A stretch of DNA of 64,000 nucleotides from Tubiluchus corallicola (GCA_030141605.1 JAQGDQ010000282.1:1-64000); one strand, 5' to 3'. Counted from the stretch's first letter, positions 222 through 58,206 are shown. The notes: generated from the letters alone by a model not told the origin. Made by a program: numbers and translations.

Positions 222-407
222 GATTACGAACTACGTACTCAGAAAAGCCAGTGGACCTTATAATTGGTTTGTCGAGAGTGTACATGCATCTGTCTAAATC
301 CAACCAGTCAGCTTATTCCATAGCTGTAAAGACGTAAGAATTCAAATTTATCAGCGCAATTTTCGAAAGAACTAGTATTAATAAACACCCTCAATTTGTG
401 TTAGAAT

Positions 408-5212: not shown

Positions 5213-8200
5213 ATGAAGACTGTTATGCGTCATTCACTTTGTAGACATCAGGGGCTGAGTCGTTTATACAGTGGGTAAGTTGTTTACCTTTTTTAATAGT
5301 CTTTCCTAACTTGAACTGCTGATTAACACTGACATCTAACAGCCCTGAGTTACTCCAATGTCTCACTTGCTATGAGACAAATAGGGTTATAAAAGTACAA
5401 GTGGTTTGGTAGGGGTAGTTGACCTCAAATGTTCTACTGCTTATTAAGAATAGAATGTTGATAAAAGGAACAGTCTATTTTTTTTCAACTACACATCTTG
5501 CTTGCCAAAATATTTTCTTAAAAATGTTTTTTTACGTTTAATGTTGAGTAAAATACTTTTAATGTTGAAAAAAATGTGAAATTACAAAATTTCAAGTTTT
5601 TCTCTGTGCAAAACAGTAAAAATTTTAATTTGTAGTTTAACTTGTGTATGGTAATTCTTTTAAATCAAAACAGCCAATGCCCCCTCAAATTATTTTTCTG
5701 TAATAGTGCTCAACACATGCAGAATACTAATTAAATTAACAACTGTTGTGGTTTTCCATGCAAATATAATTTAAATCCTAATAAAAAATGATTGGTTTAC
5801 AAAATTTTATTTTTCAGCATAACAGGATTTATGAGTGGCAGTGATTCTCCGCCGGAAATACCATCACAAGCTAGAGTTGTCATTTGTGGCGGAGGAATCA
5901 TTGGGACGTCTGTCTTGTATCATTTATGTAAATATGGATGGAGAGATGTCGTGCTGTTGGAACAAGGGCGGTATGTTATAAATTTCTTTTGAAATCTCTT
6001 ACAAAAATTTGTTATGTCAGGTGGCACAAAAAAATGTGCAGAAGTTTTGGTCACATTATACAAAGAAAACAATGGAGCCACTTGAAAATTACCACATTGT
6101 GTTACAGGCGTTTATGTATAAACATCAAAGTACACTTTCTCCAGATACCATAATCCAGAGGATTAAATCCCATTTTTATAAGAAATCTTTATTAGTGCTT
6201 TACTCTCTGTGGTGAAGACCAGTGAGGTAAACTTTATTGTCTTTATTGTTTTGCTGCCATGCTGTTTTTCAGTTTATGATTAGCTGCCATTGTTCTGTTA
6301 TTTAATTTTTTGGACAGTCAAAAGCTTTTCAACTGGAACTTAAAAACTGCTAAAACTATGAACTGTTACATATGAACTTGTAACTTTCGCAACCATACGT
6401 TAATGTAATATCATGCTGTGAAGTTTAACTTTGTAGGGCACTTGCATCTAATGCTTCTGGCTTCTAAAATTTGGCACACTTTTTGTGCCACCTGATATAA
6501 CATCAGGTTTATACTGATTTGGCTACACATTTGTAAAGACATTTGTGTAAGCATACCTTTGATGAGAAAAATTGAAGTGACATATGGACCTATAATCTAT
6601 TGTCTGTAATGATGCAGATTTTTTATTGTAATGTTATTTTATTATAAACATTGCAGCTGCCTAACATATTGCTAACTTGTATTTTATTTAGTGATGAATT
6701 GTAACTGTAAAATTGTTTACTTTAAACCTTTGGGTTTACTTTTGAATCTTAATTTCTAGATTCTAAATGTTTTTTGTGCATTTCTTGAACTTTGTGTTGT
6801 GTTAACTGTTACCATAGTTTTCTTCAATTAGTTTATTTGCATTTAACTTTCACAGGCATTGTTTAATATGTGCACACTGACAATTTTACAGGTTATCATG
6901 TGGCACTAGTTGGCATGCTGCTGGATTAATAGGCCAGGTTAAGAGTGGCTTATCCGAGTCTAAACTAGCAGTGTATTCAAGGCAGCTTTATAAGGAACTG
7001 GATGATGATGGTGAACCAACAGGTTGGCACATCTCACTATAGTGCTAGCTTTAACAAAGAATTTTTGTTCTTTGTTAAAACTGTAAAATTTTTAGTTATG
7101 CGATTTTATGAGAATCATCCATGTCTCAAGTTCGATTCGGATATTGTGTGTAGTTTTTTGTATCTGCATACATGCACATTTCTGCACAGAACTTAAATTG
7201 CATTTGTTAAATCTAATATGTAAGTTCAAATTTGAACCAGCCATGTTGAGAAATGTTGAATTTAAAAGGTTAAATTAGAAATTATTTTTATTTTTCACAT
7301 GGTAATAATATTAGATCGGTGTGGTGATGCATCAAAAGAACCAATATACAACTGTATTATAAATGTTATAAATATAGAGGCTCCTTAAAAGGCTTTGGTA
7401 GTGGTGGCTATATTTAAGAGGATGTCGGTTTTAGTGAGAGTTGCTATGCTTTTATTCCCAAGCATGTATTTGCGATGTATTTCTTTTAGACTTTTGTTTT
7501 ATTATTTGATTTTAAATGTTTTAGGATGGAAGCAATGTGGTAGTATCAGTTTAGCTCGAACAAGAGACAGGTTGGATACATTTCCAAGTCTAGTTACAAG
7601 AGCTAGGTGTGTTTAATATATGCACATCATGAATTTGCAGATATGTTATGTTGACATTGAAAGTATTATAGTACTTTAAACCAATTTATTCTAGCTTTGA
7701 GTGAGTTAAATGCTGCATCAAATTGTTCACTTGTTCTAACTAAAAAGATGGTGCTTTACTTTTAAAACTTGTAATATCGATTTCATTAACATTTGTGGTT
7801 ACAGTGATGTGCTACTGCTAGTAGAAAAATCCTGGATAGAAGTGGTTTTAATGAGCACCTGTTTCTGTCTGTAAATTAAAATAATTGCTTTTTTCCTTTG
7901 GCAGCACATTAGATGTAGAAGCATATATGATCTCTCCTCAAGATGTACAGAATCACCTGCCTTTTGTAAAAATTGATGATATTGAGGTAATTGTCTTTCC
8001 ATTATTAAAAGTGCGCGTGTCACTGTTAAAGTTTTTACATTTATTAAACAAAACAGGTCAATTCATTTAATGTTTTTTTAAAAAGACTGCTTTTTCTGAC
8101 GTTGTCACAAAGAGTATCAGAAAATTTCTTAGTACACGCGATCAGTTTTTTAGCAGATAGGTAGATTTTATTGTCAGTAAAAATCGTACAATTGACAAGC

Positions 8201-11200
8201 AATTGAATATACTGTTTGTACAGCGACAAATAATGTGGCAGCATACTATTCAATCATTTATGATGACTGACTGGTATGCTGCCATATTGTATGCCACAGT
8301 ATACATTGTATAGTCAATTGTATGAACAGATTCAGAAGTTCAGAATTTGCAGCTGAACAATCAAAATTATTTTTTGTCATTTGTTTATATTTCATTATTC
8401 TGTTCGGCTTGAGCTGCATACTCTATTTAATTCAGTATAAATAATTTGCTTTGATATAAAAAACTATCTTGAATTTTTTGGATCAACAAATTCCTGTCGC
8501 CTTCCTAATAAGCAGATTCTTCTAAAGTTATGTGACGTTTTGGAATATGATTTTGTGAAGCTCATAATACAAATTTAGAGTTGAGATTTTTTGCGCTATC
8601 TCATGTTGAAGACATTTTGTTATTTCTGAGTTGCAAATATTCCTTTTTTTATCTTATGTGAATTTTATTCATTCTATTTATTTAATTTAAGTTGAAATTG
8701 TACATTTCATTTGGCATAGATTTTTTAAAGGTAAATTTAAATTCTGAAACGTTACTGTGCTTTTTTGGAAATTTAGCTTTGAAGAAATAATTATGCCATT
8801 TCTTTAATGAGAATTTAAGATTTTAAGAGAAGTAAAAGTAACATTAAAACTATGTATTGTTTTTAGGGTGGACTATTATATCCAACAGATGGCGTAGTCA
8901 GCCCTACAGACATAGTTTCAAGTTTTGCAAGACGAGCAAGACAAAATGGTACTTAAACTCCATAATTTCTAACTTGAAAATAAAAGTTGTCTTCTCCATC
9001 TGACAGTTGAGTTTTGCGCCTTAATTCTGTCACATTAGTGACTTTATTTACAAAGGAAAGGATTGTTGTTGAGATGTATTTTAATTTAGCTAAAGGAATT
9101 TTACTTTTTGAGATACACATAGACAATTATACATAGTAAGTCTTTAAACTGGTTTCTGTCATTCAAACTGTGTATTTAAATGTTGGAAACATCCTACAAA
9201 GAGTTTCCACCTCCATCATGCTGACAAGGTCAAAATATTCTAATGCTCTGTAGTTTGACTGCATACTTGGTTGGCTTAGTACAGTAACATTTTCTTTGGC
9301 AATCTAAATTATTTTGTTAAGATTGAAGCTGCCCCTTTAAAAGTGACTGAAGGCTTGTTAGCTGCAACAATGAATTGAAATTGGAATTGAAAATCTGACA
9401 CTTGCAGTTGCTCCGGAATGGAGTTCTAGTTAGGGTGACTTTAGCAGCTATCCAATTTTTTGTTGGCTGAGTAAACTTAGGTTAAAGTTCCGCGGTTCCA
9501 GGCACTGTGTGATATATGTTATGAAATGCCAACTTGTTAAGTCTATAAAATTGACATGCTTAAATGATATTGTTTAATCCGGCTTAACTGGAGTACCAGC
9601 CGTACTAATTTAACCCTATCTTTAAATGCCATTTTTACATTTTCACAGGTGGTAAGGTTTTCGAAGGCGTCAAAGTTGAGAAAATTTTGACAAAAAACTG
9701 CAAAGTTTCTCAGGTGCAAACGAACGCTGGCTCAATTGACTGTGAATATTTTATCAACTGTGCTGGCTTTGTAAGTTGTTAATTCTTATTTTACTGCAAC
9801 GCCAGTGATATCGCTTTTATGATTTCACAAAACTCTCCTAAACTCATCTTTGTATTCTATATATATAAACTTTGGTTATTTTGAGTGGATTTACAACACA
9901 GTAACTATTCCCGATCACAGTATTTCCACTATGTGCAGTGATGAAATATACTATTGGTTAGTTCGAGTATGTAATAAGTCATAATAGTTAATTCAAAAAT
10001 ACGACTAGTTCATTAGTTGACACTTAATTGAAATTTACGAAACCCGTAGAATAGATATGATAATAGAAACGATTCTCGAAGTACATAAGTCTATAAGCCC
10101 ATGCAAAGTATAAGTAGTACCTTGTAATGCACAATGTTGCTACTTAATTCAGAAATCCAATAGATGTGGAATTAATACAATTAGTGTAGTATTACAGTTA
10201 TTACAGCAATACATATAGTTGTTTCTAGCATAAGTCGTTAATTAATGAGTGCTTGATTGAGAGACAGTCTACATAATAACTTAAAATACAATTATATGTA
10301 CAATTAGTTAACAAAACGTTTAGTGGATTTTATGTAGTTCTGCAACAATTTAAAGAAAATGCCACTGGATGGCTGACCTGATCTGAGTTTATGAAAAATG
10401 TTGTTGTATATAATAGCAGGTCTAGGGTTGGCGTTATTTGTATTCCAAGTGTGCATTACTGTTTTTCGTCTTAAAACACGAAATATAGGTGCCATTTTCC
10501 AGCATTTTTCTCTTTTGAAAGTTTGGTACCTTAAGTGGCATGTTAAGTACTAGTTGCTTGAGACTGTATATGTTTGCTGAATGTAAAGGTGATAGGTTGG
10601 TTTATTGCATTCAGGTGCAAACTAATGGAAGTGCGGCTTTATTTGTTTAGTGGAGTCATAATCTGGGACGTGACGGTATTCCCGGCAAGAAAGTCCGTGT
10701 TCCACTGCATCCGGTTGAACATTTTTATATTGTAACTAAAGAGCTGGAGGGAATCCCACCTATGATGCCTGGTAAATTTTCTTAAAAATGTATTAGCTAG
10801 CACTGTAAACATACCAGAGATTACATACAAGCCAATGCTAGCCTCAGATGCTACTCTTGAAGCTGAATAAAACTACTGTTGTTTGGTTTTAGATTAACAT
10901 AAAGGAAGATAATTGTGATTCTTGTAGATATTTTAAAAACTCTATCACCAAATAGTTCATTTTTTTGTATATTTGATTAGCCAAACATGTTAAGTCATTC
11001 CTCAAAGAGAATTTTTGTTTATGTTTCTGCATCTCACAAAGTATTTACTTTGATAGCAAGGTTAGTGACAAGAGAATGACTGTAATTGTTAATCTAGGTA
11101 AAAGAACTTGCTTTGAGAAAAATATACTTTTTGCAATAGTGTCTTTGTCTCGATAACACTTATTGTAACTTTTCTAACATAAAAGAAGTTGCTAATTTCG

Positions 11201-14200
11201 TAAATGAGTTTCTTTGTGTTATTAAACTTTTTTTTATGTATTTAGTGATAAGAGACATGGATGTTGGAACTTACTTTCGTGAATGGTCGGGTGGACTCAT
11301 GTGCGGGGGATTTGAGAAAGTAGCTAAACCAGTCTTTCATGACAAAATACCAGATGAGTTTTATTTTCAACTTCTTCCTGAAGACTGGGATCATTTTCGT
11401 AAGTAGTTTTTCTGACACGTTGTAGCTTTCTTACGTTATGTTTTTTTAAATAACCAGAACATTTATTTAGTGGCACCTAAGGCCTTATATTGTACAACAT
11501 TGTAAAGATAATTAAATGAACTTGTAATTTTCTGTTTTTCCTCTTTCCTGTCTGTTGTGCCTTCTGTTTGTGCTCTGTATCATTTTAAAAGCTGGAATAT
11601 TCTTTCTGACATGGATCACATATATGTAATTGATCATATCACTTTCTATATGTAATTGATCACATTTATGCTAATAACGTACAGTAATTGCCACTTAATA
11701 GACTCACGGTTAATTGACTCAAATTACCTGGTACAGGCTGCTTCTATTAAAATGTACATAAAAACTGTCGGTAATTGACTCAAATAATTCCGCATAACCG
11801 ACTCAATATTTTTGCTTCACTTCACATTCAATAAGACACTTTTCATGTGACTGATAAGCTTTCATGACTTTTATATCATCTTAGTTCACTTTTGTCCTAT
11901 AATATACATATAAACAATCATGTTAAGTACCGATTTGTTTGTAAGCAGGGACGTTTATCATGCGCTAATCATGCTAGCCTAAAGGTTTGCTTTGACCCGC
12001 CCATCCACTGCAATTAGCCTCGTTACCCAAGAATTCCTGAAAGCTAAACATTTAATCACTTGTCTAGCGGTTTGCTTTAGAAGCTCTCGTTGTCTTTCCC
12101 AGAAAGTTTAATTAGTTTACCGTTGCTGTTATGCCAGGGATGCAGGTACAGTACAGTTAGTACATCACAATAGCAAGCGGGAGCTTACAGACGAAGCCAC
12201 ATGCGGGGAAATACTGTCACCACCAACAACAACAGTTTTAAATGTTTTTATTATTATGAGAACTTTCTGACCCAACTTGTCACAAAAAATGAATCAGCCG
12301 ACCTTAAACGTATTTCCATTATTTTTGCGAATGAACAGACTTGCGTGATTTAGAAAAGTATATTTTTTAATTTATTGCTAAATCACTTATATAAATTACT
12401 ATTTTAAAATATTTTTTCTAATTTTTAGCTGCACAAAGGAATTTAGGCATTACTTCACTTCTAATATTATTAAAACCCTTTGCAGTGCATAGTAAGCTGA
12501 GGACTCATACTTCTATACCAGTAATACTACACCCATCATTTAATAGGTTCAGTCGGTTAATTGGGTCAAAACACTTTGGTCACAAAGTGAGTCTATTAAG
12601 CGGTGCCTACTGTATTTAATGTCAATTTTTCAGGTGTTTAGGATGTTTCTGACCATCTCCCAGCTGTACTTCATTTAACACTATAGGTATACAAAGTAAG
12701 GAGCAAAAAAAGATTACAATTCGAGACTTTAAAACTTCAATAAGATTCAGCTTAACCGTGAGTCCACAATCTATTTCAAGAAGAACTCTATTGATTAGGC
12801 TCCTACAACGCTGACGAAAATTCTCAAAATTCATTAACTACATATTAAGATGTGCATAACTTTATCAAGGAAACGTACTAACCTTCACAGTAAGCCATTG
12901 CTTACAATTTGTGTACTTAAGGTAGTAGAATTGGAATGTTGTAATCCCATAACATCAATATCAATACTTTCCAGAAATGAAACACAAACAGTTCTCAAAC
13001 AAAAATAACTGATATAATGGACATTGCTAATTATTGTAAACTATTAATTGCTAATATAATAAAAAAACACAAAGAAAGTGTGGATAACAAATAATTAGTA
13101 TCACTATCATGTAATAATTATTCAATAAATTTTTTATCAACTGTTAATCTATTTATTAGTATGAAACTTGTGTTAGAAGAAATGTTACACTTCTTATGAC
13201 GATTATTTTTTGATTCCATTTTGTTTATCAGATTTGGCATTTATCTGTTGCAGAACCAATGTTGGAAGAAATGTTGCATCGAATTCCTATGTTAGTAAAT
13301 GCTAAGGTGAGACACATGACAAATGGTCCAGAAAGCTTCACACCCGATGGAAAGATCATTTTTGGAGAAGTGCCAGAGGTAATGAATATAACGATGTATG
13401 AGTGTGATTTACGTGTTTTGAGTTTGCTCACGTTAATACATTTTATGGAATTAATGAGCACGAAATCCACTGAAACCAATGATTCTTAATCACATTATAG
13501 CCCTCATAGAGAAAAGCTGTTATTAGGCAATTGAAAAACTTTTTAAGGCTAATCTAGTACTGTTTAAAATACTTGTACCTGTAAGCATGTACACTTTTAC
13601 TTGTAAAGCATTAACAGCCAAAATTGTAAGCATGTGCAGTCGTAAGCATGTACAGCTGTACTTGTAAGTATTTTTAAATAATAGATTTTAAACTTGCTAG
13701 AAATTGACTGCTGAACTTCAGAATTTGTTTTCATTATTCAGAAGTTTTGTTTCATGTGAGAATGAAGCAATATGGGAAATCTTAGCTACCAGATCAACAG
13801 CTGATGCTATTGAATCATGCTTGGACTGTTGTCTGATGAAATCAACTTGACAACTGTCTTTAAATTGTATTGAAATTGGGATGAGTGGACCACAGTCATG
13901 CGGACTGGATAGGACAAGGTCTACAACTTTTTTTGTGGATCAGATCATACTATGGATTTATTATTGAAAATAAGGAAAATAGGTGGACCAGATAAAAAAA
14001 TAATAGCGAACCGGATCTTTAGAGTTGTCATTTATTATCGATGTTAATCCGCAACTATGATGATGCACATCGCGGGGAAATGCACTCCATGTTTAGCAAA
14101 TGAGGCTTTATTTTCTCGTGATATTACCTAACATTGTTCCCGTCTTAGTGATAGAGTACTGACTGCAAAACAGCCCAAAATATTTTTATTTAATTTTAGT

Positions 14201-17200
14201 TTTTTGATCAGCTGATCCCCTCATCCCTGTATTGAAATGAAAGTGTTGTTCACCTTACAGAGTTTTAATCAGTTTTAAGCTTTTACATGTTGGTTTAAAA
14301 CTTTAATATTAATATTGTGGCACCTTTTTATAGTGTTACACTTGAAAATGGCTTATCCAGTTTTATCAGCTGTCTCTTTAGCTAAACATTGGTTTATGAA
14401 TGAAGCTGCGTGTTTCCTTCGTACATAAGCCTTTTATCGAAACCATCTTTTCTTGAATAAATTTTATTTTTTATTTTTTACATTTCAAACCTGGGGCTTT
14501 TATTTGGATAAGCTTTCCAGAGTGTTCTTCAGAAGAAAAATAATCAAAACATTGATTCATCTCATTTCACGGCTAAGCGTTTTATCTTTTTTATTGAAAG
14601 CCTCAGTCTTTTTCGTGCTTTTGGTTTTTGACTAAAAGCATCTTATGCCAAGTCGGGGTGATCTGTTTTTCGTAGGTAGACAATTACTATGTTGCTACGG
14701 GTATGAATTCATCAGGACTAACATTTGGAGGTGGAATAGGCAAGGCAATGGCTGAATACATCATTGAAGGAGAGCCAACATTAGACCTGTGGCATCAAGA
14801 TGTTAAGAGATTCCTAGACTTGCACAACAACAAGAAATACCTACGCGATAGAGTGAAGGAGATAGTTGGTGAGAGAAGGGATTTATTGGAACTTTCCGCC
14901 CTACTGCATGAGGAGTTACTAAGCCCCTTGCATGCTCGTTAATTTATTTTTCAGGTGAATAATTACTTTGTCGCTACTGGCATGAACTCTAGTGGCATTG
15001 TGTTCGGTGGCGGTGTGGGTAAGGCGATGGCTGAATACCTGGTCGAAGGCGAACCATCTCTCGATTTGCTGCAGCAGGACGTCAAGAGGTTTCTTGACCT
15101 GCACAATAATCGGAAGTTTCTGCGTGACAGAGTGAAAGAAGTTGTCGGTGAGCCCTGGAGAACATTTGTAAAGCTACCCACTGCGATATGCTTTTTCTTG
15201 TCTTTTTTTCAAAATTTAAACCAATAGCAAAGAGCAAATTGTGCAACTTATTTCTTAGGCCAAAGAAATTTCTTAGAATGTGCTCAACCTTGACATTAGG
15301 TTTGACCCTCATACCTAAGGCAGTCTAGTATGTCATCTGTAGATTTAAATGTCACGCTTGCACAGAGAGTCTGCACGTTGAACAGTAATTCAAAAGTGAG
15401 CCACTCAAGGACTGTTTTTGCTGTACAATGAATGCGATTCCTGCTGTTTGCCATACAGCAGCCATAGAATTTGTACTAGAACTTGGCGCCCTTTATTGCC
15501 TCACCTTTTTCCATGCCTAGCAGTGTCTCTGTGCACATGTGGCATTTAAACATATAATGTTATCCTAGGGCTTATCAATGATACTGCTTTAGGATTTGGT
15601 CCTGTCACAACCACTAGCATAATAATAAGTAACCCTAATGTGGTACCAGCTTGCCGTGTGCCGAATATGTAAAAAAGCAGCAGTTATAGGATTTTGAAAA
15701 GAGCTACAAAGGAAATCATGTAATGGTCACTTATGGGAAACATCTGGATAAAAGTGCAATTGAGTTATCTGTTAGGGAAGTATGTGTTACCCAAAGTTCA
15801 AGTGCTGTAAGTACTGACCATAATTTTCGACCACTATTGCCAGTTAGAAGTCTTTTTGCTATGGCATGTACTTTTAATTTTAATTTTTTGCTCATTTTAT
15901 ATATTCGCATGTTATCCATCATAATTTTTGCTGCTTCGTTTAATTGTAACAACTTTGGGTTGTATCCAGAGATGCATGTTAATGTCCGTGCACTTGCATA
16001 CTATTTTTATCGTTTTTTGCTTTTTTGGTTTAGACTCCATTTTAATCTCATTCTTTTTAAAGTTATTTATTTTAACATTTGTGTGCTCATGTGTGTTTGT
16101 GTATTCAACACTTTTTGTGTTTGTCCTCAGTACAGTATTAAACAAAAGATCAAGTCTTCTAGGAAGTTAGACTTACTTCAATGTTTGCGAAAAAAGATTT
16201 AGTAATTAAAGTGTGATAAGCGTCTCGCATAAGTAGTAAAATCACTAAAGTCCACATCACTTCCCTCATGGTTGCACCCATTCTGAACACCTGTTCCTCC
16301 ACAAATGATGTCATTCTTCGATTGAAGAAAAGCAGCACACTGTCAGTTCCTTTTCTGCTTAAGTATGATAAGTTTTTACAAAAAAGCTGACTTTATAATG
16401 TTTTTATATTTGGGTATATTTGGGTTTATATTTGGGTATTAACTGACCAATTAAATTGTTTTGTATAGGTCGGTACTATAAAATTCAGTACCCACTTATG
16501 GACTATTCAACTAGTAGAAAGTTACGTACATCTCCGCTGTACACTAAATTACAGGCTGCTGGTGCTGTATTTGTACAATCATGTGGATTTGAGAGACCTA
16601 TGTGGTTCGACGTCGACTCGGGTAATCTTTTTTTTTTGGTTGTTTGAACTTGTCACAACGTAACTGCGTAACTGCGTGTTTTACAGAAAATGTCCACTTC
16701 AGTTTGAATTTTTTTTTACTTAGAGGACATCTTTTAGTTAATTGTGGTTACCAAAGTTGCATAAGTTAAACAGGTCTCAAAGATGGAAGTGTACGTCCCA
16801 CTGCTTTTGTTTTAAACTTGGTATTTGTTTTAGTTGACAAAAGGAAAATCCTGGCTGGTTCATGAAAATTTTTTGTGAACCTGTTTAAGTTTCTATAAAA
16901 CAATTTTCAACATGTGCAGCTAGCAAACGTTGCTCAACTTGCAGTTAAAAGCAATTTATTGTTTGCATTTGCTGTCCTAACATGCCTTACTTTCAATTAG
17001 GCGAGCTAAAATTTTTAATTCTACCTTTATATTACCTTTAAAGAATGAATAGTCATTAACCTTTATAATATAGCTGATTACAAGAGCAATATCTGTTTCA
17101 TAGATAAATTTCATTAATTTTTTTAGGAGAAAAATCCAGTGTCTAAAGCAAGCTAGCAGTCATCATCAGGAAATATATAAATAATGAGTTAAAATTCATT

Positions 17201-20200
17201 AAAATTCATTTATAGAAACGTGAATTTTTCTAATAAGAATTTAATGAAATTTATTATATAGTAATTTGTTTATAAAATTCAAATAGATCTTAAAATATGA
17301 GTAACTAGAATGAATAAACTTAAAAATTTATGTGAAACAACAATCAGCTTAACAGCCAAGTTGCCGAAGAACTGAGATACGGTTTTGTGTGCAAGACTGC
17401 TTGTGTAATTGATCCAGTTAATTAACTAACCAATTAATTAGTTGGATTTAGGCATTTAACCACCATTGCACTAATTATTTGTTTGCTAAGGATGACATTT
17501 GTCAATGGCTTAGATGTTGATGTAAAGCTCAAGAGATTAGAGTGCGTATGTGGTAATTACATGCTGCACAGTCTCTTATTCATTTGTTAAGCAGTTCACA
17601 ATTTTCAAATATTGGCCATGTTGTTTCAAATGAAGTGTCAAGTTTATTACAGCAAATTGGTCAATAATTAATTATTTACTGAACCGTCCAATCAGTTTAC
17701 ATTTTTTCTGCATTAGATGATTACACAGATCGCTCATCATTTTATCAGTTGGATAAATCATTTGGGAAGCCTGTTTGGTTTGATGCGGTCAGAGACGAGT
17801 ACCTTTCTAGCAGGGAAGGAGTGGCTATGATTGATATGTCTGCATTTGCCAAATTTGAATTAAAGGTAAATGTGGTGCTTTGTCAATGATCAACAGTAAA
17901 ATATAAGCCATTGATTTAGACATTCATGGATTGAATATTGTGTTGATTTGGCTTTACAATACGTTGTTTTTAACATGTGTTTAAATATGAGTTAAACTAA
18001 GGATTATTAGTTGCAAATGTCAAGTATTCTTAGGTCTGTGCAGTTTTTGTGCCTCAAAACAAAAATTATTTAGGTGCAAAGCCAATGATAGTAATGTAAG
18101 TTACATTTTGTTGTTTTCTTTTATTTATTTATTGCTATTAGCTGTTTTTAGATTCTTGACCAGTGGCGGCTCGTGTATAGGTACTGTGGTACTGCAGCGC
18201 CCCCTGTTTTCACTCATTATTATCGATAATATTCAATATAATAAGTCCTTTTTCTTTAGTTTTTTTATATTTGTTCAGAACCGGAGCATGCGAGGGAAAT
18301 ACAATTTGCTTCACAGCCCAAGCAATGTGGTGTTTGGCTGTTGTACGCATGTGGCCATGTACACATGTCTGAGGTAACACGCTGTATGCTAGCGTCTGCT
18401 GCTAGGTAGAAAAGTACTCTATCACATTAATAATTGCCATGTGCTTACCGGGTACCGTCATATTCTTGGATATGATAAAGCGTAAACTTAGCGTGTGTGC
18501 TTAAAACATAAATTATTTAATAATGGACGCCTTGCATCCTCAAGAAATAAGTTCTGTGACTGTAAGTGAACTACAACAGCTTAATTTTTCACAGTTGTCT
18601 CTCCATGAGAAAGTTGCAGTTAAGAAAAGAGGCCGTTTAGCACCTGATCTTCAAATATAACTACAACATTAAAGTTACATATGTTTCTTACGTTTTCCAC
18701 AGTATTAAAACAATGGCTAAAAATTTTCTGGAGCAGCACCCCACTAATTTTAGCTATTAGCCGCCACTGTTCTTGACTCTGTAAATCCATTAACCAATGC
18801 TTTTCATTTCTTTCATACAGAAAAGGTGAGAGTAAAGCTTGACGAAAGTTAAAATCTGACTTATTTTGACACTTTCATTGAAATTCTGAGAAATGTGAAC
18901 TTTTTTTGATACCAGATTTACATTATTGTGCGTTAATGTGCTGCTATGTTTAAGAACACCATTAAAATTCAACCTTGAGATGGATTTTTATACTTTCAGT
19001 CAGCTGGTCATGAAGTAGTGGATTTTATGCAGTATCTCTGCTCCAATAACGTTGACAAGCCAGTAGGTGACCTCATGCATTCAGGCATGCAGAACCACAG
19101 AGGCGGTTACGAGAATGATTGTAGTGTTGTACGGCTAGCTGAGAACCAGTAAATATACATGCTGTAAAAGTTTAACATAAAGAATGCTGAGCTGAGCCTT
19201 GGCCTTGCATGCACTAATAATTACCATACTTGTAAAATGTTTCAACTTGAGGCCTAATAAGGAGGGTTAGCTTCACGAATCATTGGCATACTTTTGCTTT
19301 TTAGCATTTTAGGTCTTTGAAATACGTCTGAGAACTTAAGGAGTTAACAAAGAGTCAATTGTGATTTTCACGTTTACTGCAAACTTGTCTCCATCTACCA
19401 GTCTCGACTTGTAAAATGTAATTTGTTCAAACTTATTTATTCAATAATTAATTTACCTCTGTAACTTTTTAGCTAACACGTTGACCCCATTTTGTTGTAG
19501 ACTATGATGCAAGTCAGTTCAAATTTATTTCCCCATTATTTTAATGTTTTCATGATAGTTATAGCAGTTTGGATCAGGAACTGTATTGAAAAACCGTAAG
19601 ATCTACCAATAATGCTTCTACTTGCCAAAATATTTTTTAATATCTTTCCTTTTTACTGGTGGCATGCAGGTCTTTGTTTACCAAGCATCTGAAGTAAGAG
19701 AAATACGACGGGTAATGTTTCCCATATTTTGCATGGGTTTGGTTGTTAGTCAAGGACCAATCATTTAGGAGTTGACTTCTAGGAAATAAGGAAATGAACA
19801 TCACTTGATTAAGTACAGGCTTCTGTAAGAGGTATTGGAATAGCTTCTATCTCTAGGTGTTCCAATGTACTGTTGGAAAAAACTACACAACAAAACAAAG
19901 GTTACTTTTAGAACAATGTGTGACAAACGAATCCGAGCAAAAAAATTGCTTGTGAAGATTTTAAGTTATACAGTTAGCTGATTCCGCTCTACTGGTAATG
20001 GTTTGTATTGTTTGATTTGATTTGACTTGATTTGTTTTGTATTATCGTAACATTTCTCTTGATTGTCAGTTTGTAACATTATCGAGTTTATAATTCCATA
20101 CAGATTACTTGTGCTATCTTGAATTAACTGTAGTTGCATTTATAAAATCGTAGCAGTTATTGCCAGTTTTAATGTGTTCATTAGGCTAAAGATATGGTGC

Positions 20201-22846
20201 AAACTTGATCTTTTGATACGCTAATGTTCTGTCTCCTTTTTCAGTTATTTTGTGATCTCACCTTCCCAGCAGCAGACACGTTGTATGAAGTGGATCAAAT
20301 CACATTTACCCAGTGATGGATCTGTAATGGTGACTGATGTGACTTCCATGTACACGGCGATTAATGTCATCGGAGCTTTGTCACGTGATCTCATGTCAGA
20401 GTTAACCGAAGTTTCGATGGCTAATACAGATTTTCCTTTCTTTAAATGCAAGGTGCATTTTCAGATTTAATTGGAAATCAACAAAAACACATTAGGGCTT
20501 TGCTCTAGGATGCCACTGTTCTAAGAAAATAGCATCCGTTAGGTTTTCTCATCCATCCTCTTAAAATTGGCCAAATCATTGTAATTGTTAAGTTTCAATT
20601 TCATTAGAATGTAATCTTAGATACAATCAGTGCTCTTAGAAACAGTTGCTTTTGCAGGTTATTGATGTAGGATATGCGACAGGAATTCGTGCTCTCAGTA
20701 TATCACATGCTGGCGAATTAGGCTGGGTGTTGTATATTCCTAACGAGGTATTCTTTTTATTGTCTGTTACTGTATGAAAGGCATTTTTATAATACAACAA
20801 TGCAATGCCACATTTTCAGTGTTGGAATTCCTGCTTGTCACAAGCCAGTTTAACTGTCACCTTTTCCCACAATTTTCCTGACCTATGTAGATACAACTGC
20901 TACGTGTTATTTGTATTTATAATTTATCTTTATGTATATATTTGAGCAAGCGACACATTTCTACCTATGGACAAAGTATTTGTAATAATTCACTGCTGTA
21001 TTTGCATTGATTTTCAGTACGCCTTGCATGTATATGATCGCTTGCAAGCTGTGGGGAAGAATTACGGGTTACGGCATGCCGGTTATTTGGCGATGCGATC
21101 TCTTCGTATAGAAAAGTTATTCGCTCACTGGGGTCAGGATCTTACCCCCTTTACAACGCCACTTGAGGCTGGGAGAGCATTCCGTGTTAAAATTCATGTA
21201 AGTGAGGATTTCTTTCTTAGGGTGTAAAACATTTTTTGTGTTGGGTCAATTACTTTTAAATAAAACATATATGCTCGCTCAATTAATTTTAAAATGTAGT
21301 TTCACTACATATATAATCGTTCTCCTGAAAAGAAGTGTCTTATAGTACCAACACAGTTATTTTTTAAACGTACAGTTGCAGTTATAATTATTGTATAAAT
21401 ATTGTGTCACTACAATAACCATTATTTTCATATTGCAACGGTTCAGCTGAGCATTGTTGATATAGTACATTGCAACGTGCGCAGTTGGTACGTTAAAAAA
21501 GAGCTAATAATTTTATAGTGATTATTAATATGTTAAGTGGTAGGTAAAGAAAGCCAAGTTCATGGTTATAAGTAGTTTATTTATGATTTATCATACACTT
21601 GCAGGTTATTCCGCCTTACAAGGATAATTTAACCTACTGTTTTGTTTCCAATGTCCATGTAAAGTACTTTTATATGTACTGTAGTTGTTACTGAATTAAC
21701 AGGCTTGTTTAGATCTCATGATTAGAAATCTTCACCAATCTTGAAAATGTGTCTTGTCCAGTGTGTTTTTTCCAAAATTGGTTGACCACAGTGAGAAACT
21801 CGTATCAGCTAGCAATGTTGCATAAAGCAGAACTTGTGATTTTTCACTGTTTGTAAATTATGCTTTTAATTTAGTTGGTGTTTTCCGTCATCTGTAGAGA
21901 AACTTTGCTCAAACTTTTTATCTTCTGATGATGTATCTCTCATCTCTTGTAACATTGTTTCCTCTTAAGTTTTTTTTACCCGCAGAGTGACGTTGACTTC
22001 ATTGGCAAACAATCATTACTGGAACAGAAAAAGGATGGCGTGTGCAAGAAACTCATCCAGCTACAAATATCTGATCATGACGTGGACAGTGACATCTGGC
22101 CTTGGGGTGGTGAAGCCATATATAGAAATGGAAAGCATTGTGGAACAACTACGTCGGCTATGTATGGCTTTACGTTGAACAGACAAGTGTGCATAGGTAA
22201 AACGTGTTTAAGTGATGTAATTATTGAAAAAGTCCTCTGAGGTACTAAGTGATACCACTAAATCCCTGAAATTCAGTTTTCTCCAGCAAGTGGAATCACT
22301 ATGAAGCTTATTATTGCTTATAGTACAATGCTACTTTCATTTCAAACAAGTGAAAAAGTAGATTTTCAACATTTGTTTTGCATCACTTTACTAGCTTTTA
22401 CTTTTACTTGATTTGGCCATTCTTGTTTAAAAATCAGAAACTGAGATCTCATTCGTTAGTGTCAAAGAATTTCATTTGTCAAAACCAATTTGAATTTTTG
22501 AGTGTGCTATTCAAATATTTAAACTCTTTTACCTTTTCACATACCAAACTCTAGTGCTTTTTGATAATTATGAAGTATTTGCCTCATATGGCTTCACTAC
22601 AGTACTTACCTGATGTCATTAACTATAACATTTTCTATGTGCTTAGGCTTTGTGCATGACAGAGACGATGTTTCTGGTCAACTGAGACCAATAGATAATG
22701 ACTACATACTAAAGGATGCTAGTTTCGAAGTGGAAATTGCGGGCAGACGTTTCCCAGCAAAAGCTGGTGTTCACTCACCTACGCTGGTCTCTGTGGTTGC
22801 GCCACCTAGTCAGTATGCAGCTACACAAGCTTGGTCTCCAACTTGA
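5213..22846 (+). CDS. PDPR: PDPR-family mitochondrial FAD oxidoreductase/GcvT-domain protein, paralog 1 (~881 aa)
   Basis: GT-AG exons assembled in frame: 5213-5274, 5818-5970, 6892-7022, 7525-7606, 7905-7986, 8867-8948, 9649-9770, 10651-10771, 11246-11398, 13254-13378, [14676-14868 OR 14955-15147], 16469-16621, 17717-17865, 19000-19148, 20245-20452, 20658-20747, 21018-21197, 21986-22196, 22647-22846 (2646 nt). Motifs: VVICGGGIIG (FAD Rossmann fold), GTSWHAAG, NGPESFTPDG, GFERPMWF, GGYENDC, LRIEK, WPWGGEAIYRNG. Arg-rich N-terminus resembles a transit peptide. Confidence 0.9.
11682..12612. mobile_element. Non-autonomous Tc1/mariner (pogo/Tigger-type) DNA transposon
   Basis: Imperfect ~26-bp TIRs, CAGTAATTGCCACTTAATAGACTCAC and GTGAGTCTATTAAGCGGTGCCTACTG, flanked by TA on both sides. 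No transposase ORF. Confidence 0.8.
13876..14229. mobile_element. hAT-type MITE
   Basis: Ends TTGGGATGAG ... CTCATCCCTG, with an 8-bp target duplication TATTGAAA (13868-13875 and 14230-14237). Confidence 0.75.
14676..14868 (+). CDS. PDPR: PDPR paralog 1 alternative exon A (193 nt, phase 0-1)
   Basis: cgtag|GTAGAC...ATAGTTG|gtgag; encodes VDNYYVATGMNSSGLTFGGGIGKAMAEYIIEGEPTLDLWHQDVKRFLDLHNNKKYLRDRVKEIV. Confidence 0.85.
14955..15147 (+). CDS. PDPR: PDPR paralog 1 alternative exon B (193 nt, phase 0-1)
   Basis: tttttcag|GTGAAT...GTTGTCG|gtgag; encodes VNNYFVATGMNSSGIVFGGGVGKAMAEYLVEGEPSLDLLQQDVKRFLDLHNNRKFLRDRVKEVV. Confidence 0.85.
18161..18769 (+). mobile_element. Internally deleted hAT transposon
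   Basis: TIRs CAGTGGCGGCT and AGCCGCCACTG; 8-bp TSD TTCTTGAC (18153-18160 and 18770-18777). Contains a short remnant (LQQLNFSQLSLHEKVAVKKRGR) resembling a hAT transposase N-terminus. Confidence 0.85.
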
Positions 22847-25800
22847 GATGTTTATGGAGATGGATGACTTGTATATACGAAGAAACCATTGCTGTAATTC
22901 GCCTGTAATTCATTAGTACAGTGCAAACTTCGTGAAGCAGAACTATTTACCTCCATCGTGGAGTAACATGTGTAATTACTCAGCTTAAGTTAATTAACCT
23001 ACTGAAATATGGTAAATCTTTCCACTGAGAATTAGATCATTTAGGTTTCTGTTTGTGAAATATAAATGTATAAGTCAACTAGATATTGTATATGGATCTC
23101 TTCTGATTATTTTATGTTATCGATTTCTTAATATTGTTTGTTATTGTTGGTGGCATCATATTATGACATTGTCCAAGCAACAGACACTGTAAAAATAAAT
23201 GTTCAAATCTGTAGTTCTGAAACTTTTGTAGATACATGCATCTGCAATAGCGTTGATAGCATGTGGAATTTGTAATGCAGCTTATTGACTGTTTCATATT
23301 CTGCAATACATACAGGTTGCAATATTATTCATGTGCTCTACTCAGAGCTTTACTTATTCTTTTATATATGTGTAGCAACAACTATAATGTTACCTTATCG
23401 TACCTAAATTGTATATTGAAATTGTTTTGCAATGTGATATGTTTTAAGTAAGTTTTAAAGCTAAACGTTGGATAAAACATAAACATTCAAACTAGTAATG
23501 TAATTTCACGTAACTGTATATGATTTAACACCAGTAAGGAAATGTATTTTACACAATTATATTAAAATGCTCATAATGCCTTTTCAGCACTTCACCGGTT
23601 TACTCAAATATGTTTACAAACAAGAAAAAATGTAAAGTAAAATGAAGCTTGAATATTAACTTTATTTACACCCTGCTATAATAAACTATCAATTTTCTAG
23701 ACTATATACACAACATATTATCTTTCTAAGTCTGTCTAGAAACATATTCTATTACACAAATCACAGTAATATAATACACTTGCAAACAATATTTTACAAT
23801 ACATTTAAATAATAAACACACTTTAAAAATGCATCCCTATAACACCCTGAGCTAGGTCCAAATGGCCTGCTTACTGATAATGAACTTCCGTATTGCTGTA
23901 TTTTCAAGTCTATTTCACAAACTACTTAAAAGATATTGCATTGAAAAGTACAACATTAATGTAAAAAAGTAATACAAATAATAACATAGTTCCCATTTTT
24001 GTTTTATTATTTTAGAGATAAACATTGACATCACAAAATGCTTGTATAATTGCCTAATGGTCATGTTGCGCAAAAATAGACACCGAAAACAAGCATCACA
24101 TTTGAACCAAGACTATACCAAGTCCTTGCAGTGAGAATTCTAATTTGTAATTGTCCAAATGACCTACAAAACACCAAGCAAAAGATTTTCTCATTTAGAT
24201 AATAGATTACATCAAATCATCTGTCATCATGTGGATGTAGTTTACAATAGCCTAGATATTAGAGGCTGCACACTAACTGTAGTAGAGATCAGGTGAAAAC
24301 ACACCCATTGTGGAAGAAAAGGACTGCAGTTTGCATTGAAGAAAAAATAATCCCATGTACATCTTAACACATGTTATTCTAATTATTAAAGGTCACATGA
24401 TCAAACAACACACTTAGTATGAATAAATATTAATGCCCCGTAAGATGCAGCAGGAACTGAACAATGTTGGTTTAAGAGTTGTAAAAGTTAAATTACTTAG
24501 TGACCTATTGTGTAATTTGTCACTTTTGTAAAAACTAGTGTAATATCTCTCGTCACATACTCCACAGTCATTTTAAAATTTCTATGTATGTACTTTGCCC
24601 CAAAGTCTCCAGCGGCTTTCACTGTATAGTAGGTGAAGCCATTTTTGTATTTAAAGAAAGAAAAGTTCATGCAGCTACATCTATATACAAGTATAACAGT
24701 ATAGTTCAAACAGACAATTTTACAGTAAATTAGTAAAAAATATTAATGATAATGTTAGCAACTGCTACACTATATCTAAATCAAGTTTAGTAGACAGAAA
24801 AAATGTTCAATACTCACTAACAAAAAGGCAACCTGTAATAAGTAAGGACTGTATCATTTGCTTAGAACTGTTATCTTTACTTCCAGTGTCATAAAAAAAA
24901 GTAACTGTCATAAAAGACCTAGCAATATAACTAGAACGTTACCATAAAAACAACCCTGGAGGATCTGTGTAATGCACGTCAACATACTTACAAAATAAGA
25001 AATGCAAATTCACAGTAAATAAATAAACTGTCAGGAGATGTTGTATACTAGAAAAACAAGGAGTAAACACTGCATAAGACTAAATCACTGCACTGATCCA
25101 AAAAAGAATATAGTAAATGTTTTTTGTCTAACAATGTGCTAGTAAAAAGTATGTGCATTATAGACCTCTGTGTGGTAAAAAAGCTAAATTCATTCAAAGC
25201 AAATATACAAAGTTTCTACAGAAGTTAACAGAACAATAAAGACATGGTATATATGCAACATCGGAATGTGCACTGGGAAAAAGCCCAATGCAATGCAAGA
25301 CAAATAATTCAAACTTTAACGTTAAGCTCATGATAAAATCTTGACCAACATGATTAGTTATTGAACATACACCTACCGCTACATCTCACCAAAAAAGAAT
25401 AAAAAACTTGGCACAAGGCACTTGGATTGCAGTTATGTAATGAGAATTCTCTTTGAAAAATGGCATTGCAGTTAGAAAGAGAGGAGGTGACACGATGCAG
25501 GCTTGCACTGCAATGTCGACAGAAGTGAGTACTGTTTCCAACCGAGAGTTTGAGCTTGGATGGTGTAGTAACAAACACCACAAAGATGATGTAGACTTAA
25601 AAAGCTACTATGTTTAAATATTAAATTAAGGTCATACATCTCCAAGATAAAACCGTTTTGACAGCAAAAATGTCACATTAAAAGGCGCAGATACTTCTTT
25701 AAACGAAACCAGCAGATTTATGTTTTTGTAAGAAACCTGGCTCCAATTTACCTGAAAATCTTGTATTATTAATATCATTTGCAGTTTATTTCTTACGATT

Positions 25801-31900: not shown

Positions 31901-34900
31901 AATGGCGACCTAAAAACAATAAAGAAAATGAAAATTTAATATTATAGCAAGTAACTGCATAGTTTACCTGTAATTTATAACATACCAAATAATGGCTAAA
32001 TTACCTCTGTTGATATTTTTTAGGTTCAGTGACTCATCTTAATGGCTTAGCAAAGTTCTAAGGTAATGAGCCAGGTTCTGGTATTGCCACAAGCATTAAT
32101 GTTAAATAAGTCTTGTTACCTAGGGCAGGATTCCAACTTGTTGTGCACCAAATTGTACACTGTACCAAAAATTTAAAAACTGAAACTAATTATAATTTTT
32201 AATCCTGGTGAAGACTTCCAATTTTCAAATTTTCATCGAACACTTGAGCTATAACAAGTTAAATTACAAGTATGTACATTTAATTTTGACAAGCATAAAA
32301 TGTTTAGATGACGTTAATGTCTTTTTGACTTGTCCAGACACATTTTAATTTTGTGAAAAAAGTTGGCATTTCATACTTAGTGCCAGCCTGGGTAATAAAA
32401 TCAAACTGTTGATAATAGAGTGATTTGCAAGAAATTTTGTAAATTAAAGTAACACGTGGAAAGTTATACATAAAACTGTGGTATTGCTTTGCCTTAATAG
32501 GTCAAAATTTGTTGCAACTATTAAATCATTTAAATTTTATGTGACAAAATAATGATGTTCTTTGTTAGTGCTGACTGAGATAAGTACATAGAAACATAAA
32601 GCTGATCGAAGGACAGTGATTGAGTTCATTGTCAAAATTAAAATGACCATGCGTCAAATAATAAAATTGGCCAAAAAAAAACAACAAGAAATCACTGATG
32701 GAGTTACCAACTATTTCCGTCACTCTGTCGCTGAGATATTTGAGATTACTATGTGCTTCAAAGAACCGAGTGATTTCCAATGACCACAGGTCAGTCATGC
32801 GAGGTTCTTCCATCTGGACGATTCTCTCGGCCAACGCTTTTCCCACCCCTCCAGCAGCCGCTATGCCACCATCGCAAAAGCCAGTAGCTAGGTAGTAGTT
32901 ATTAATCTACAAAAGAAAGAAATATTTATTTATTATACAAAGCACATTTTGTCTGGCAACATAGCATTACTGGAGTGTTATTACAACAATGGCGTTTGTT
33001 AGGACTGTCATTAAAGGTGCCACACTGTGCAACACAGCAAGAACATTGTTTTTTTGCTCTATTTGCTCTATACATAAAAGTCCAGCAAAAGGTTACTTTG
33101 GAATGCATGCAAATTTTCTTTTTAACAAATGCAAAAAAGATCAGAACCAGATGATTTCAGTGAGAAGAACTTAGGCGCTTATACTTTAATCATACACCTT
33201 GGCAAAGTACATCGAAAATTTATCTTTTAAAATTACATAAATATTGTTTGTGAAAATTTATCTTTTAAAATTACATAAATATTGTTCACCTCTGGAGCTT
33301 CTCCCACTATCCATGTGCCATCCGGAGTGAAGGCTTCAGGTCCATTAATCATATTCACAGCTGGACGCGCCCCACTGGTAGGAAATCGGTAGTTAAGACG
33401 TAACAAGAGGTAGTCTAAATTGAATACAAAAAAATCATTTTATATCTTTAATTTTACATTCTTGGTGATTAAAACAAGGCAGTGATAAAAGTAATTTTTA
33501 ATATGAAAATAAAAAAAAAATAAAAAACTATTATGAAGATTAATAATCTTGGATATTTGGACATCGTGGATATTTCATTATTTTCAAGTTAGTGAAAACC
33601 CTGAAACCTCAAATCATCATTAAGTGTAAATTACTCTTTTGTTGGAAATGTTGCTGACATTTTACGTCAATAGATGAAGATACCAACATGAGCAAAGGCA
33701 TGGCTTAAATTATCTGCAAAGTTTCAACCATAACATGCTCATGATCAAGCTATTGTACCTAGTAAAATATAATGTATAAAAATCACTACTGAGGTACAAA
33801 AATCAACATTGTGAAAAGCAAAGAACTGTTTCTGTGTTATGGTTTATATCTTGTATTTGAATGTAAGGAAACAAACGGTTATTTCCGCCACCATTTCTAC
33901 CATTTCTACAGCCAATGGTCATTTTCAAGATCTAGCCACATGCGTGGTCGGTTGCTTTTAAAACAGAAATAGAATCACTGCCTGAATGCCTCTCTTTAGA
34001 ACAGAATCCCTCCTCGCTTCCGGAATGAATTATCTGCAAACATTATTCTAATGGCATCATTATCCTCTTTCACACAGGCTGTTTTCCATCATTTTACTAT
34101 CCAAGAGCATGCATTTTAAACCTTTGGCCTCGTAAACAGTTCATTTATTTTTAATATTTAATCATATTTGCAGATAATTTTTGTATTCTAAGTAAATTGT
34201 CTTAGAATATTTTATATAATTTTTTAACAATGTAATTTTTATTTTAGTTCTACGTGTCTCCATGGCACACAGTAGTAGGCACAACCTTCGTATTGATCAT
34301 TAACAAATTTAAATTCACTGTTTTGTTTTACTCATGTATGAAATGTACATATCGATTTTTGTGTCTAATAAATAAGTAAATAAATCGTTGAAACATTGCA
34401 GATGGTAGTGTTGGAATAAACAGGGAGTCTTTGCTTAAGTGGATGTTGGCAGTTCTTTACACCTTAACAATCCAATTTTCCCATCACCAATCAATTTCTC
34501 AACAGAAAATTTTCTCTTAATCTTTAGATTAAAAACAACTCATAAATCGAATTTTTACCTAGGTTTTCAAACATTCTTTAAAGGGGCTATCAATGACAAA
34601 AATATTTCCAAACCCAAAAGTTATTCTGAAGAAAAACAATGTTGGCCTTTACATAAAAATCTATACAAAGTTTACTGTAAGAAATTCTTAACGACCATTT
34701 ATAATACAAACTCAGTGGAAGTTGTAGATATATTTTTGAGAAAAGAACGTGTTCTTAAGAATGTCCAAGATTTTCCTTTCAACAACATTTTTTGCTAATT
34801 CTTAACAGATGTTTTAAACTTTATTAACTTAGCCAATTATGCTTCTAAGCCACTTTTGGATATAAGATAAGTGAGAACAATTGCAGGAATTTTATACCTG

Positions 34901-58100: not shown

Positions 58101-58158
58101 ACCAGCAAAAAAGTTCTGGAATACTGTTAATCGAAAAGCTAAAGTTCTTTAAATAATT

Positions 58159-58206
<48 letters not shown>

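What the first reader, a model, noticed from the sequence alone, without database searches (positions are those of the whole stretch)
14676..15147. Tandem mutually exclusive exons remodelling the FAD domain of a PDPR-family protein
Seen: two exons of identical length (193 nt) and phase, 86 nt apart, each with intact AG and G|gtgag sites. They share 51/64 residues, the substitutions are mostly conservative, and synonymous divergence is extensive, which suggests an old duplication with both copies under purifying selection. Including both or neither shifts the frame, so only one can be used. Established: this segment (ATGMNSSG..FGGG.GKA.AE) is the C-terminal flavin-contacting motif of the DMGDH/SARDH/DAO fold. 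The changes LTF/IVF and LWHQ/LLQQ fall in or near it. The neighbouring paralog has a single copy (32906-32708). Inference: a splicing switch that tunes flavin/substrate binding or partner binding. I know of no described mutually exclusive exon in PDPR.
Basis: partly seen in the sequence, partly recalled or inferred. Interest (0 to 1): 0.85.

Follow-up and report, generated by a model that had tools for sequence, protein, structure and literature searches.

The report
Swappable flavin-site exon in invertebrate PDPR
An invertebrate gene for a PDPR-like flavoprotein carries two old, intact copies of one exon, only one of which fits the reading frame, so it likely makes two versions differing at a residue predicted to sit beside the flavin cofactor, and gene models of four other marine invertebrates show either-or segments in the same gene.

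Summary
Observation confirmed. Exons A (14676-14868) and B (14955-15147) are both 193 nt with intact splice sites, 51/64 residues identical, silent sites saturated, dN 0.14. Either alone gives an 881-aa PDPR-like protein; both or neither give early stops. No RNA of this organism was found, so splicing is inferred. The orthologue (P0047/P0272, by accession range Priapulus caudatus) has two RefSeq isoforms differing at one residue, Thr/Met, the same column as Thr/Val here. That column opens the last helix of the FAD domain and counts out to Lys348 of monomeric sarcosine oxidase, an active-site residue. Lingula, Lineus and Tubulanus isoforms swap three other single exons (4 of 22 isoform sets, counting Priapulus). 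Best reading: mutually exclusive exons that likely tune the flavin or substrate pocket. Caveats: no junction reads, no Priapulus DNA (its Thr/Met could be two alleles assembled in tandem), all 13 changes lie in variable columns, and recent silencing of one copy is not excluded. A known kind of event in a gene where I found none described; the scan had no earlier PDPR note.

The parts
14676..14868 (+). Exon A (11a of 19), 193 nt, last strand, loop and last helix of the FAD (DAO) domain plus start of the FAO_M linker; Leu15-Thr16
14955..15147 (+). Exon B (11b), 193 nt, homologous alternative; Ile15-Val16
   Evidence: DNA of 14879-15218 also in run X1 contigs with 0-1 mismatches
14869..14954 (+). 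86-nt intron between the copies, shorter than any other intron of the gene (next 205 nt)
14919..14923 (+). Candidate branch point of exon B; its adenosine is 54 nt from the exon A donor and 32 nt from the acceptor (pattern match only)
14721..14723 (+). Thr16 codon of exon A (residue 387 of the 881-aa model)
15000..15002 (+). Val16 codon of exon B, same column
13254..13378 (+). Upstream flanking exon, ends in phase 0
16469..16621 (+). Downstream flanking exon, starts in phase 1
5213..22848 (+). Host gene, 19 coding exons per isoform, 881 aa, PDPR-like (DAO, FAO_M, GCV_T, GCV_T_C architecture); first exon 5213-5274 is a likely mitochondrial targeting exon
32708..32906 (-). Single-copy homologous exon of the neighbouring paralogue (control)

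Best explanation
The gene carries two tandem copies of one exon, only one of which keeps the reading frame, and it likely splices in one or the other to make two 881-residue flavoproteins whose 13 differences include a Thr-to-Val change predicted to lie in the flavin and substrate pocket, which would tune catalysis or cofactor binding. Shown: two intact copies, frame logic, strong constraint on both. Inferred: each copy is spliced to the common flanking exons; transcripts with both or neither carry a stop 1325 or 873 nt before the last junction and would be removed by nonsense-mediated decay; the short intron (donor to candidate branch point 54 nt) may add steric hindrance. Inferred from homologues: residues 15-16 form the first turn of the last FAD-domain helix beside the flavin ring, so losing the Thr hydroxyl would alter hydrogen bonding to the flavin or substrate. 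The protein keeps the flavinylation His and the His/Tyr pair of DMGDH-type enzymes, so it may be an active FAD/folate-dependent demethylating dehydrogenase and not only a phosphatase regulator.
For: Equal length and phase, intact sites, frame test. Saturated silent sites with dN 0.14 and neutral simulations. All family columns at 99-100% conservation are kept in both copies. Orthologue (67.6% identity, tree support 1.0) has RefSeq isoforms X1 and X2 of equal length differing only at residue 383, Thr/Met, which maps to this column; Thr there occurs in only 6 of 119 family sequences. AlphaFold model of P0272 (mean pLDDT 91.5) starts a helix at 381 and matches human DMGDH at TM 0.86. P0272 38-407 ends at residue 372 of monomeric sarcosine oxidase, so 383 counts to 348 if the last 24 columns are ungapped; Lys348 surrounds the isoalloxazine and holds the substrate carboxylate (PMC12582975, passages). 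Single-exon homologous swaps in Lingula, Lineus (two) and Tubulanus, each confined to one window exon bar one boundary residue, both variants scoring above all 500 shuffles. MXE variable residues tend to lie near functional sites (10.1101/292813, abstract).
Against: No junction read: no RNA holder could be laid. The exon tree groups A with B (support 92) and X1 with X2 (100), not A with X1 and B with X2, so the two pairs are independent duplications or have been homogenised; simple conservation of an ancestral pair is not shown. Only 1 of 22 isoform sets has a swap confined to this exon. Column 16 is variable across the family (A34, V23, S22, Q19, T6, E5 of 119) and the changes are mostly conservative. 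The branch distance (54 nt) is just above the roughly 50-nt threshold (PMC7969005 and PMC5740500, passages), a second candidate lies at 74 nt, and no docker/selector pairing beat shuffles. No FAD-bound model was made; the pocket assignment rests on alignment.
Confidence: 0.55

Rival explanations
1. Both exons are used in a mutually exclusive way, but the two proteins are near-equivalent at the flavin site; what is selected is tissue or stage regulation, stability, or surface contacts with a partner (the phosphatase catalytic subunit or ETF) through changes such as Trp39Leu and His40Gln.
For: All 13 changes are in variable columns and most are Ile/Leu/Val, Tyr/Phe, Lys/Arg or Thr/Ser swaps; 6 of the 13 lie at exon residues 35-63, beyond the helix; purifying selection on both copies needs only that each is used somewhere.
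Against: The only difference in the orthologue's pair is in the pocket column, with the rare Thr on one side in both species; swaps in other phyla also fall on exons that carry active-site motifs.
Confidence: 0.27
2. The pair was mutually exclusive for a long time, but one copy has recently stopped being spliced and is now a relic that has not yet decayed.
For: No RNA evidence for either exon. A copy drifting neutrally for 0.05 substitutions per site stays intact and above 51/64 identity in 50% of simulations, 16% at 0.1.
Against: Both acceptors and donors look like the gene's constitutive sites (10 and 13 pyrimidines of 17, range 8-15); neither copy has a change at a near-invariant column; exon branch lengths are both short (0.14 and 0.08).
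Confidence: 0.13
3. The second exon works as a regulated frame-shifting (poison) or alternative last exon that lowers output through decay or truncation and not as a substitute.
For: Joining both exons gives a stop right after exon A's frame runs out, at 437 residues, far upstream of the last junction.
Against: When joined after A, exon B is read out of frame, which cannot explain why its in-frame protein sequence is conserved while its silent sites are saturated.
Confidence: 0.03
4. The tandem pair is an assembly artefact: two alleles or two loci stitched together.
For: Exon A itself was not covered by the low-depth contigs of run X1, and X1 may be the source sample.
Against: 67% DNA identity with saturated silent sites is far beyond allelic difference; A and B share residues rare in the family (Phe17, Gly18, Tyr28, Gln41 at 1-3%) and the paralogue's exon is distant; X1 contigs run from the short intron through exon B into the next intron.
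Confidence: 0.02

Closest known systems
OGDH exons 4a/4b (2-oxoglutarate dehydrogenase E1; PMC7969005, passages and start of abstract; listed in the PMC8373072 supplement)
   Same: Tandem duplicated, mutually exclusive exons around a short intron in a mitochondrial dehydrogenase-related gene, tuning a ligand-sensing property.
   Different: OGDH exclusivity is enforced by branch points 25-41 nt from the donor and is shown by experiment; here the candidate is at 54 nt and frame-shift decay is the better-supported guard. The OGDH exons control Ca2+ sensitivity; here the predicted site is the flavin pocket.
PKM exons 9/10 (PKM1/PKM2; listed in the PMC8373072 supplement; function recalled)
   Same: Homologous exon swap of about 55-65 residues in a metabolic enzyme that changes regulation without changing the fold.
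   Different: PKM changes an allosteric and subunit-interface region; this swap covers the end of the cofactor-binding domain, and its use is not yet shown.
Convergent tandem exon duplications in ion channel families (Copley, as cited in PMC8373072, passage)
   Same: The same gene family acquires mutually exclusive duplicated exons independently in several lineages.
   Different: Here the repeated events hit four different exons of one flavoenzyme-fold gene in priapulid-like, brachiopod and nemertean lineages, and rest on RefSeq models I could not check against DNA or reads.
PDPR, regulatory subunit of pyruvate dehydrogenase phosphatase (function recalled; name from database labels)
   Same: Domain order and nearest named relatives (50-68% identity).
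   Different: No tandem-exon event for PDPR, DMGDH or SARDH in the human catalogue searched; binding to a phosphatase is untested for this invertebrate protein.
Dimethylglycine dehydrogenase / dimethylglycine oxidase (5L46, 4PAB, 1PJ5; PMC5082570, passages and section 14)
   Same: Same two-domain FAD plus folate fold (TM 0.86 and 0.83), His for covalent FAD and a His/Tyr pair kept by alignment.
   Different: Only about 30% identity; substrate unknown; no alternative exon known to me in these genes.

Membership tests
Mutually exclusive exons from tandem duplication | Adjacent homologous exons of similar length and identical phase with intact splice sites | tested here: met
Mutually exclusive exons from tandem duplication | Each exon alone restores the full reading frame; joint inclusion is blocked or frame-shifting | tested here: met
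   881 aa with one exon, 437 with both, 459 with neither
Mutually exclusive exons from tandem duplication | Junction reads from each exon to both flanks (criteria of PMC5740500, passages) | not testable with these tools
   no RNA holder listed; the guessed RNA run X2 laid nothing on the exons
Mutually exclusive exons from tandem duplication | Both copies under purifying selection | tested here: met
   pS 1.01, dN 0.143; simulations; a recent loss of constraint is not excluded
Mutually exclusive exons from tandem duplication | Pair conserved in a relative | tested here: inconclusive
   orthologue isoforms differ in the same exon and column but by one residue, copies group by species, no DNA seen
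Steric (branch point) MXE, OGDH or tropomyosin type | Branch point under about 50 nt from the upstream donor | tested here: inconclusive
   best candidate at 54 nt, second at 74 nt, pattern match only
Docker/selector MXE, Dscam type | Competing RNA pairings of both exon flanks with one intronic docker | tested here: not met
   8 flank-intron tests; best had 2 of 30 shuffles as strong, the other seven 11-27 of 30; no conservation test possible
PDPR | DAO + FAO_M + GCV_T + GCV_T_C architecture with nearest relatives labelled PDPR | tested here: met
   Atlas ranks PDPR clusters ahead of DMGDH and SARDH for the orthologue
PDPR | Orthology to vertebrate PDPR against SARDH and DMGDH in a tree | not tested
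   no named vertebrate PDPR, SARDH or DMGDH sequence was in the tree
PDPR | Binds the PDP catalytic subunit and lowers its Mg2+ sensitivity (recalled) | not testable with these tools
   no partner sequence or assay
DMGDH/SARDH-type active dehydrogenase | His for covalent FAD and His/Tyr catalytic pair | tested here: met
   motifs kept in the window gene and aligned to human DMGDH through P0272; roles from PMC5082570; sequence only
DMGDH/SARDH-type active dehydrogenase | Oxidative demethylation of a defined substrate | not testable with these tools
   needs an enzyme assay; identity to DMGDH is about 30%

The most novel reading that the evidence does not exclude
Invertebrate PDPR-like proteins are active mitochondrial flavoenzymes whose active site is repeatedly diversified by exon duplication: four different exons carrying the flavinylation loop, the catalytic His, the flavin-facing helix start and the domain linker have each become mutually exclusive pairs in separate phyla, and in this lineage and Priapulus an ancestral Thr versus hydrophobic switch at one flavin-facing residue has been kept while gene conversion homogenised the rest of the exon.
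Probability: 0.2. Interest if true: 0.75.

Novelty: new member of a known kind. Interest (0 to 1): 0.48.

Why it matters
What the flavin and the dehydrogenase-like fold of PDPR are for is, to my knowledge (recalled), an open question. A natural pair of isoforms that differ at a flavin-facing residue, and in the orthologue at that residue alone, gives a ready-made test of whether the flavin site matters and whether invertebrate PDPR-like proteins are enzymes. Repeated exon duplication at active-site exons in several marine phyla would point to selection for more than one catalytic or cofactor state from one gene. As a splicing phenomenon it is ordinary: duplicated mutually exclusive exons are well known.

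Tried and rejected
No genome is held for the window. RNA: no RNA holder listed; run X1 behaves as low-depth DNA and X2 covered only repeats, with no splice-like joints; this is no evidence on expression. Close relatives carrying the exon: exon A against longer proteins gave 1 hit among 8 candidates; exon B against the 50% representatives topped at 70% identity; the exon profile against 35-165 aa proteins gave 106 hits among 743 candidates, best 68%; no protein among the 271 then held had two copies of the segment. Metagenome contigs gave 2 loci among 169 pattern matches, both distant and without a second copy. Docker/selector pairing: none above shuffles. Single-sequence fold of P0272 failed (pLDDT 30) and was not used. 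The first 16-row alignment misplaced several exon pieces and was not used. Literature on DAAO Thr317 was not found: the Thr317 in PMC7312611 is another enzyme (passages); PMC6222107 (passages) and PMC7912454 (passages) added nothing on this column or on PDPR; searches gave no usable paper on PDPR flavin function or the helix dipole. Haliotis rubra X1/X2 (67 differences along the whole length) and Argopecten X1/X2 (25 differences from the N-terminus over four further exons) were not counted as single-exon swaps. Earlier scan notes: none on this place or on PDPR.

Full report
Observation. They share 51 of 64 residues and 130 of 193 bases; third codon positions agree at only 21 of 64. Nei-Gojobori counts give pN 0.130 (dN 0.143) and pS 1.01, so silent sites are saturated and dS cannot be estimated; even at dS = 1 the ratio would be 0.14. 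Of 49 identical residues with a codon choice, 14 share a codon against 19.2 expected at full saturation. In 5000 neutral simulations per distance, no copy at 0.3 substitutions per site or more stayed intact with 51 or more identical residues, whereas at 0.05 half did. Both copies have therefore been constrained as protein for most of their history; a very recent loss of use cannot be excluded.

Host gene. I built a 19-exon model from 5213 to 22848 on the plus strand. With A or B it gives 881 residues. With both it stops after 437 residues and with neither after 459, 1325 and 873 nt before the last junction; by the usual rule (recalled) these would be decay substrates. Only this exon has a second copy among the 18 exons searched, and a tail-to-tail paralogue on the minus strand (about 41490-25990) has every exon once, including the homologue at 32906-32708. 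The exon matches the last 26 positions of Pfam DAO (327-352 of 353) and the first 32 of FAO_M. The nearest of 271 proteins held at that point was P0047 (XP_014666984.1, labelled PDPR-like isoform X2) at 67.6% identity, the next at about 55%; the two are sisters with support 1.0 in a 44-sequence tree. The accession lies between two that a paper gives for Priapulus caudatus (PMC5282848, one passage), so I call it Priapulus by inference; the window's animal is then likely a distant relative of it.

Expression. No RNA run of this organism could be found or laid. Run X1 confirms the DNA of the short intron, exon B and the following intron (14879-15218, 0-1 mismatches) but did not cover exon A and may be the source sample. 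Splicing is thus inferred, not shown.

Relatives. I looked up 20 of the 120 listed family clusters, chosen for several members or isoform labels, and compared 22 same-species isoform sets; sets without isoform labels, cross-species pairs and Logan cephalopod records were compared but not counted. The orthologue's X1 and X2 are both 877 residues and differ at one position, 383, Thr versus Met. It maps to residue 16 of the exon, where the window has Thr (A) versus Val (B). Thr there is rare, 6 of 119 family sequences. A one-residue internal difference between genome-based isoforms is most simply explained by two near-identical tandem exons, and a chance hit on this exon and on one of the 13 differing columns is about 1/19 x 13/64, near 1%, a rough figure computed after the fact. 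Against this, Thr to Met can be one base change, so alleles assembled in tandem, or an extra intron, remain possible, and I could not reach the DNA. The exon tree joins A with B (92) and X1 with X2 (100): the pairs are independent duplications or an old pair homogenised by conversion. Three more species show equal-position homologous swaps, each inside one window exon apart from one boundary residue: Lingula (22 differences, the exon with the flavinylation His), Lineus (20 differences in the exon with the catalytic-type His, which one variant lacks, and about 30 in the exon after ours) and Tubulanus (28, that same later exon); both variants of every swap scored above all 500 shuffles against the window exon (exon numbers printed there are one lower than in the 19-exon model). 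That is 4 of 22 sets with single-exon swaps and 1 of 22 in this exon; the other 18 differ by micro-exons, termini, frame changes or, in Argopecten and Haliotis rubra, multi-exon blocks. That RefSeq isoforms normally rest on RNA alignments is recalled, not checked.

What the changes touch. An AlphaFold model of P0272 from a 72-sequence alignment (mean pLDDT 91.5) places a strand at 371-375 and a helix at 381-398, so residues 14-16 of the exon are its first turn; the model matches human DMGDH at TM 0.86 and dimethylglycine oxidase at 0.83. Exon residues 15-16 align with Ile-Ile of DMGDH and Val-Thr of dimethylglycine oxidase. P0272 38-407 ends at residue 372 of monomeric sarcosine oxidase; if the last 24 columns have no gap, 383 equals Lys348, one of seven residues around the isoalloxazine ring and an anchor of the substrate carboxylate (PMC12582975, passages). 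That alignment was not displayed, so this is a count, in line with my recollection that the column is also Thr317 of D-amino acid oxidase, which contacts the flavin O2; I found no paper for the latter. PMC5082570 (section 14) proposes an Ile in DMGDH versus Val in the oxidase as an oxygen gatekeeper without numbering it in the text; column 15 (Leu/Ile here) fits that pair, a lead only. The other differences are conservative or lie beyond the helix; none is in a near-invariant column. LWHQ/LLQQ is outside the motif. The window protein keeps the His that carries covalent FAD in DMGDH and the His/Tyr pair by alignment, while the paralogue lacks that His and the Tyr, so the host may be an enzyme. 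No substrate or partner was tested.

How exclusivity is kept. The frame shift is shown. The 86-nt intron is the gene's shortest (others 205-1855 nt) and its best branch candidate is 54 nt from the donor, just above the roughly 50-nt steric limit (PMC7969005 and PMC5740500, passages); a role is possible, not shown. No competing RNA pairing exceeded shuffles in 8 tests.

Known or new. Tandem duplicated mutually exclusive exons are a known class, with OGDH 4a/4b and PKM as metabolic cases. I found none described for PDPR: the one paper holding both terms lists an alternative acceptor (PMC6262947, passages); none of the 20 listed papers of one search mentions PDPR; the human catalogue supplement has no PDPR, DMGDH or SARDH; PMC5740500 has no PDPR in its main text, its supplements not searched; the supplement of the bioRxiv preprint 10.1101/292813 is closed and could list further cases. 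The library lacks most subscription papers. The isoforms of relatives already stand in RefSeq, apparently unremarked.

Verdict. A real, old, constrained exon pair; likely mutually exclusive (about 0.8 summing the first two explanations); an effect on the flavin or substrate pocket is my best mechanism (0.55). New member of a known kind. Interest 0.48, raised by the matching column in the orthologue and the repeated swaps in other phyla, held down by the lack of RNA and of relatives' DNA.

Noticed in passing
window 5213-5274 (+): Likely first coding exon of the host gene: 21 basic, acid-free residues resembling a mitochondrial targeting peptide, with a GG|GTAAGT donor in phase with the acceptor at 5818.
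   Followed up: partly
window about 41490-25990 (-): Tail-to-tail PDPR-like paralogue, 46% identical, nearly the same intron positions; it lacks the flavinylation His and the Tyr of the catalytic pair and groups weakly (0.83) with a second arthropod PDPR clade, so the neighbours may be an enzyme and a pseudo-enzyme.
   Followed up: partly
proteins P0043/P0274, P0032/P0277/P0278, P0035/P0279: RefSeq isoforms of Lingula, Lineus and Tubulanus PDPR-like genes swap other single exons for homologous versions; the two nemerteans share a swap in the same exon.
   Followed up: partly
proteins P0457/P0455 and P0013/P0288: Argopecten isoforms swap a multi-exon N-terminal block and Haliotis rubra isoforms differ along the whole length, suggesting tandem partial or whole gene copies; several molluscs and a crinoid have more than one PDPR-like gene on contigs of equal listed length.
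   Followed up: no
window 15344-15374 and 15520-15550: 31-nt inverted repeat, 81% complementary, 145 nt apart, in the intron after exon B; could fold or be a small mobile-element relic.
   Followed up: no
window about 11700-12620 and 18100-18770: High-copy repeats inside introns of the host gene (contig depth in the thousands in run X1, also hit by X2).
   Followed up: no
window 5831-22848 (+): GC at third codon positions rises along the gene, 0.15-0.41 in the 5' exons and up to 0.62 in the 3' exons; exon A 0.41, exon B 0.56 (some 3' values were computed before a one-base boundary fix and are not reliable).
   Followed up: no
window 2658-3233 (+): Intronless 191-aa frame with an armadillo repeat (Pfam Arm); resembles ARMC7 by recollection.
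   Followed up: partly
window 405-1529 (+): 374-aa frame with no Pfam hit; looks like a retrotransposon gag by recollection.
   Followed up: no
window 52246-51218 (-): Two-piece small GTPase gene (Pfam Ras).
   Followed up: partly
window 55110-59145 (+): Exons of a sodium/hydrogen exchanger gene (Pfam Na_H_Exchanger on 58786-59142).
   Followed up: partly
window 42401-43351 (+): Broken frames that look like reverse-transcriptase fragments of a LINE (by eye, not tested).
   Followed up: no
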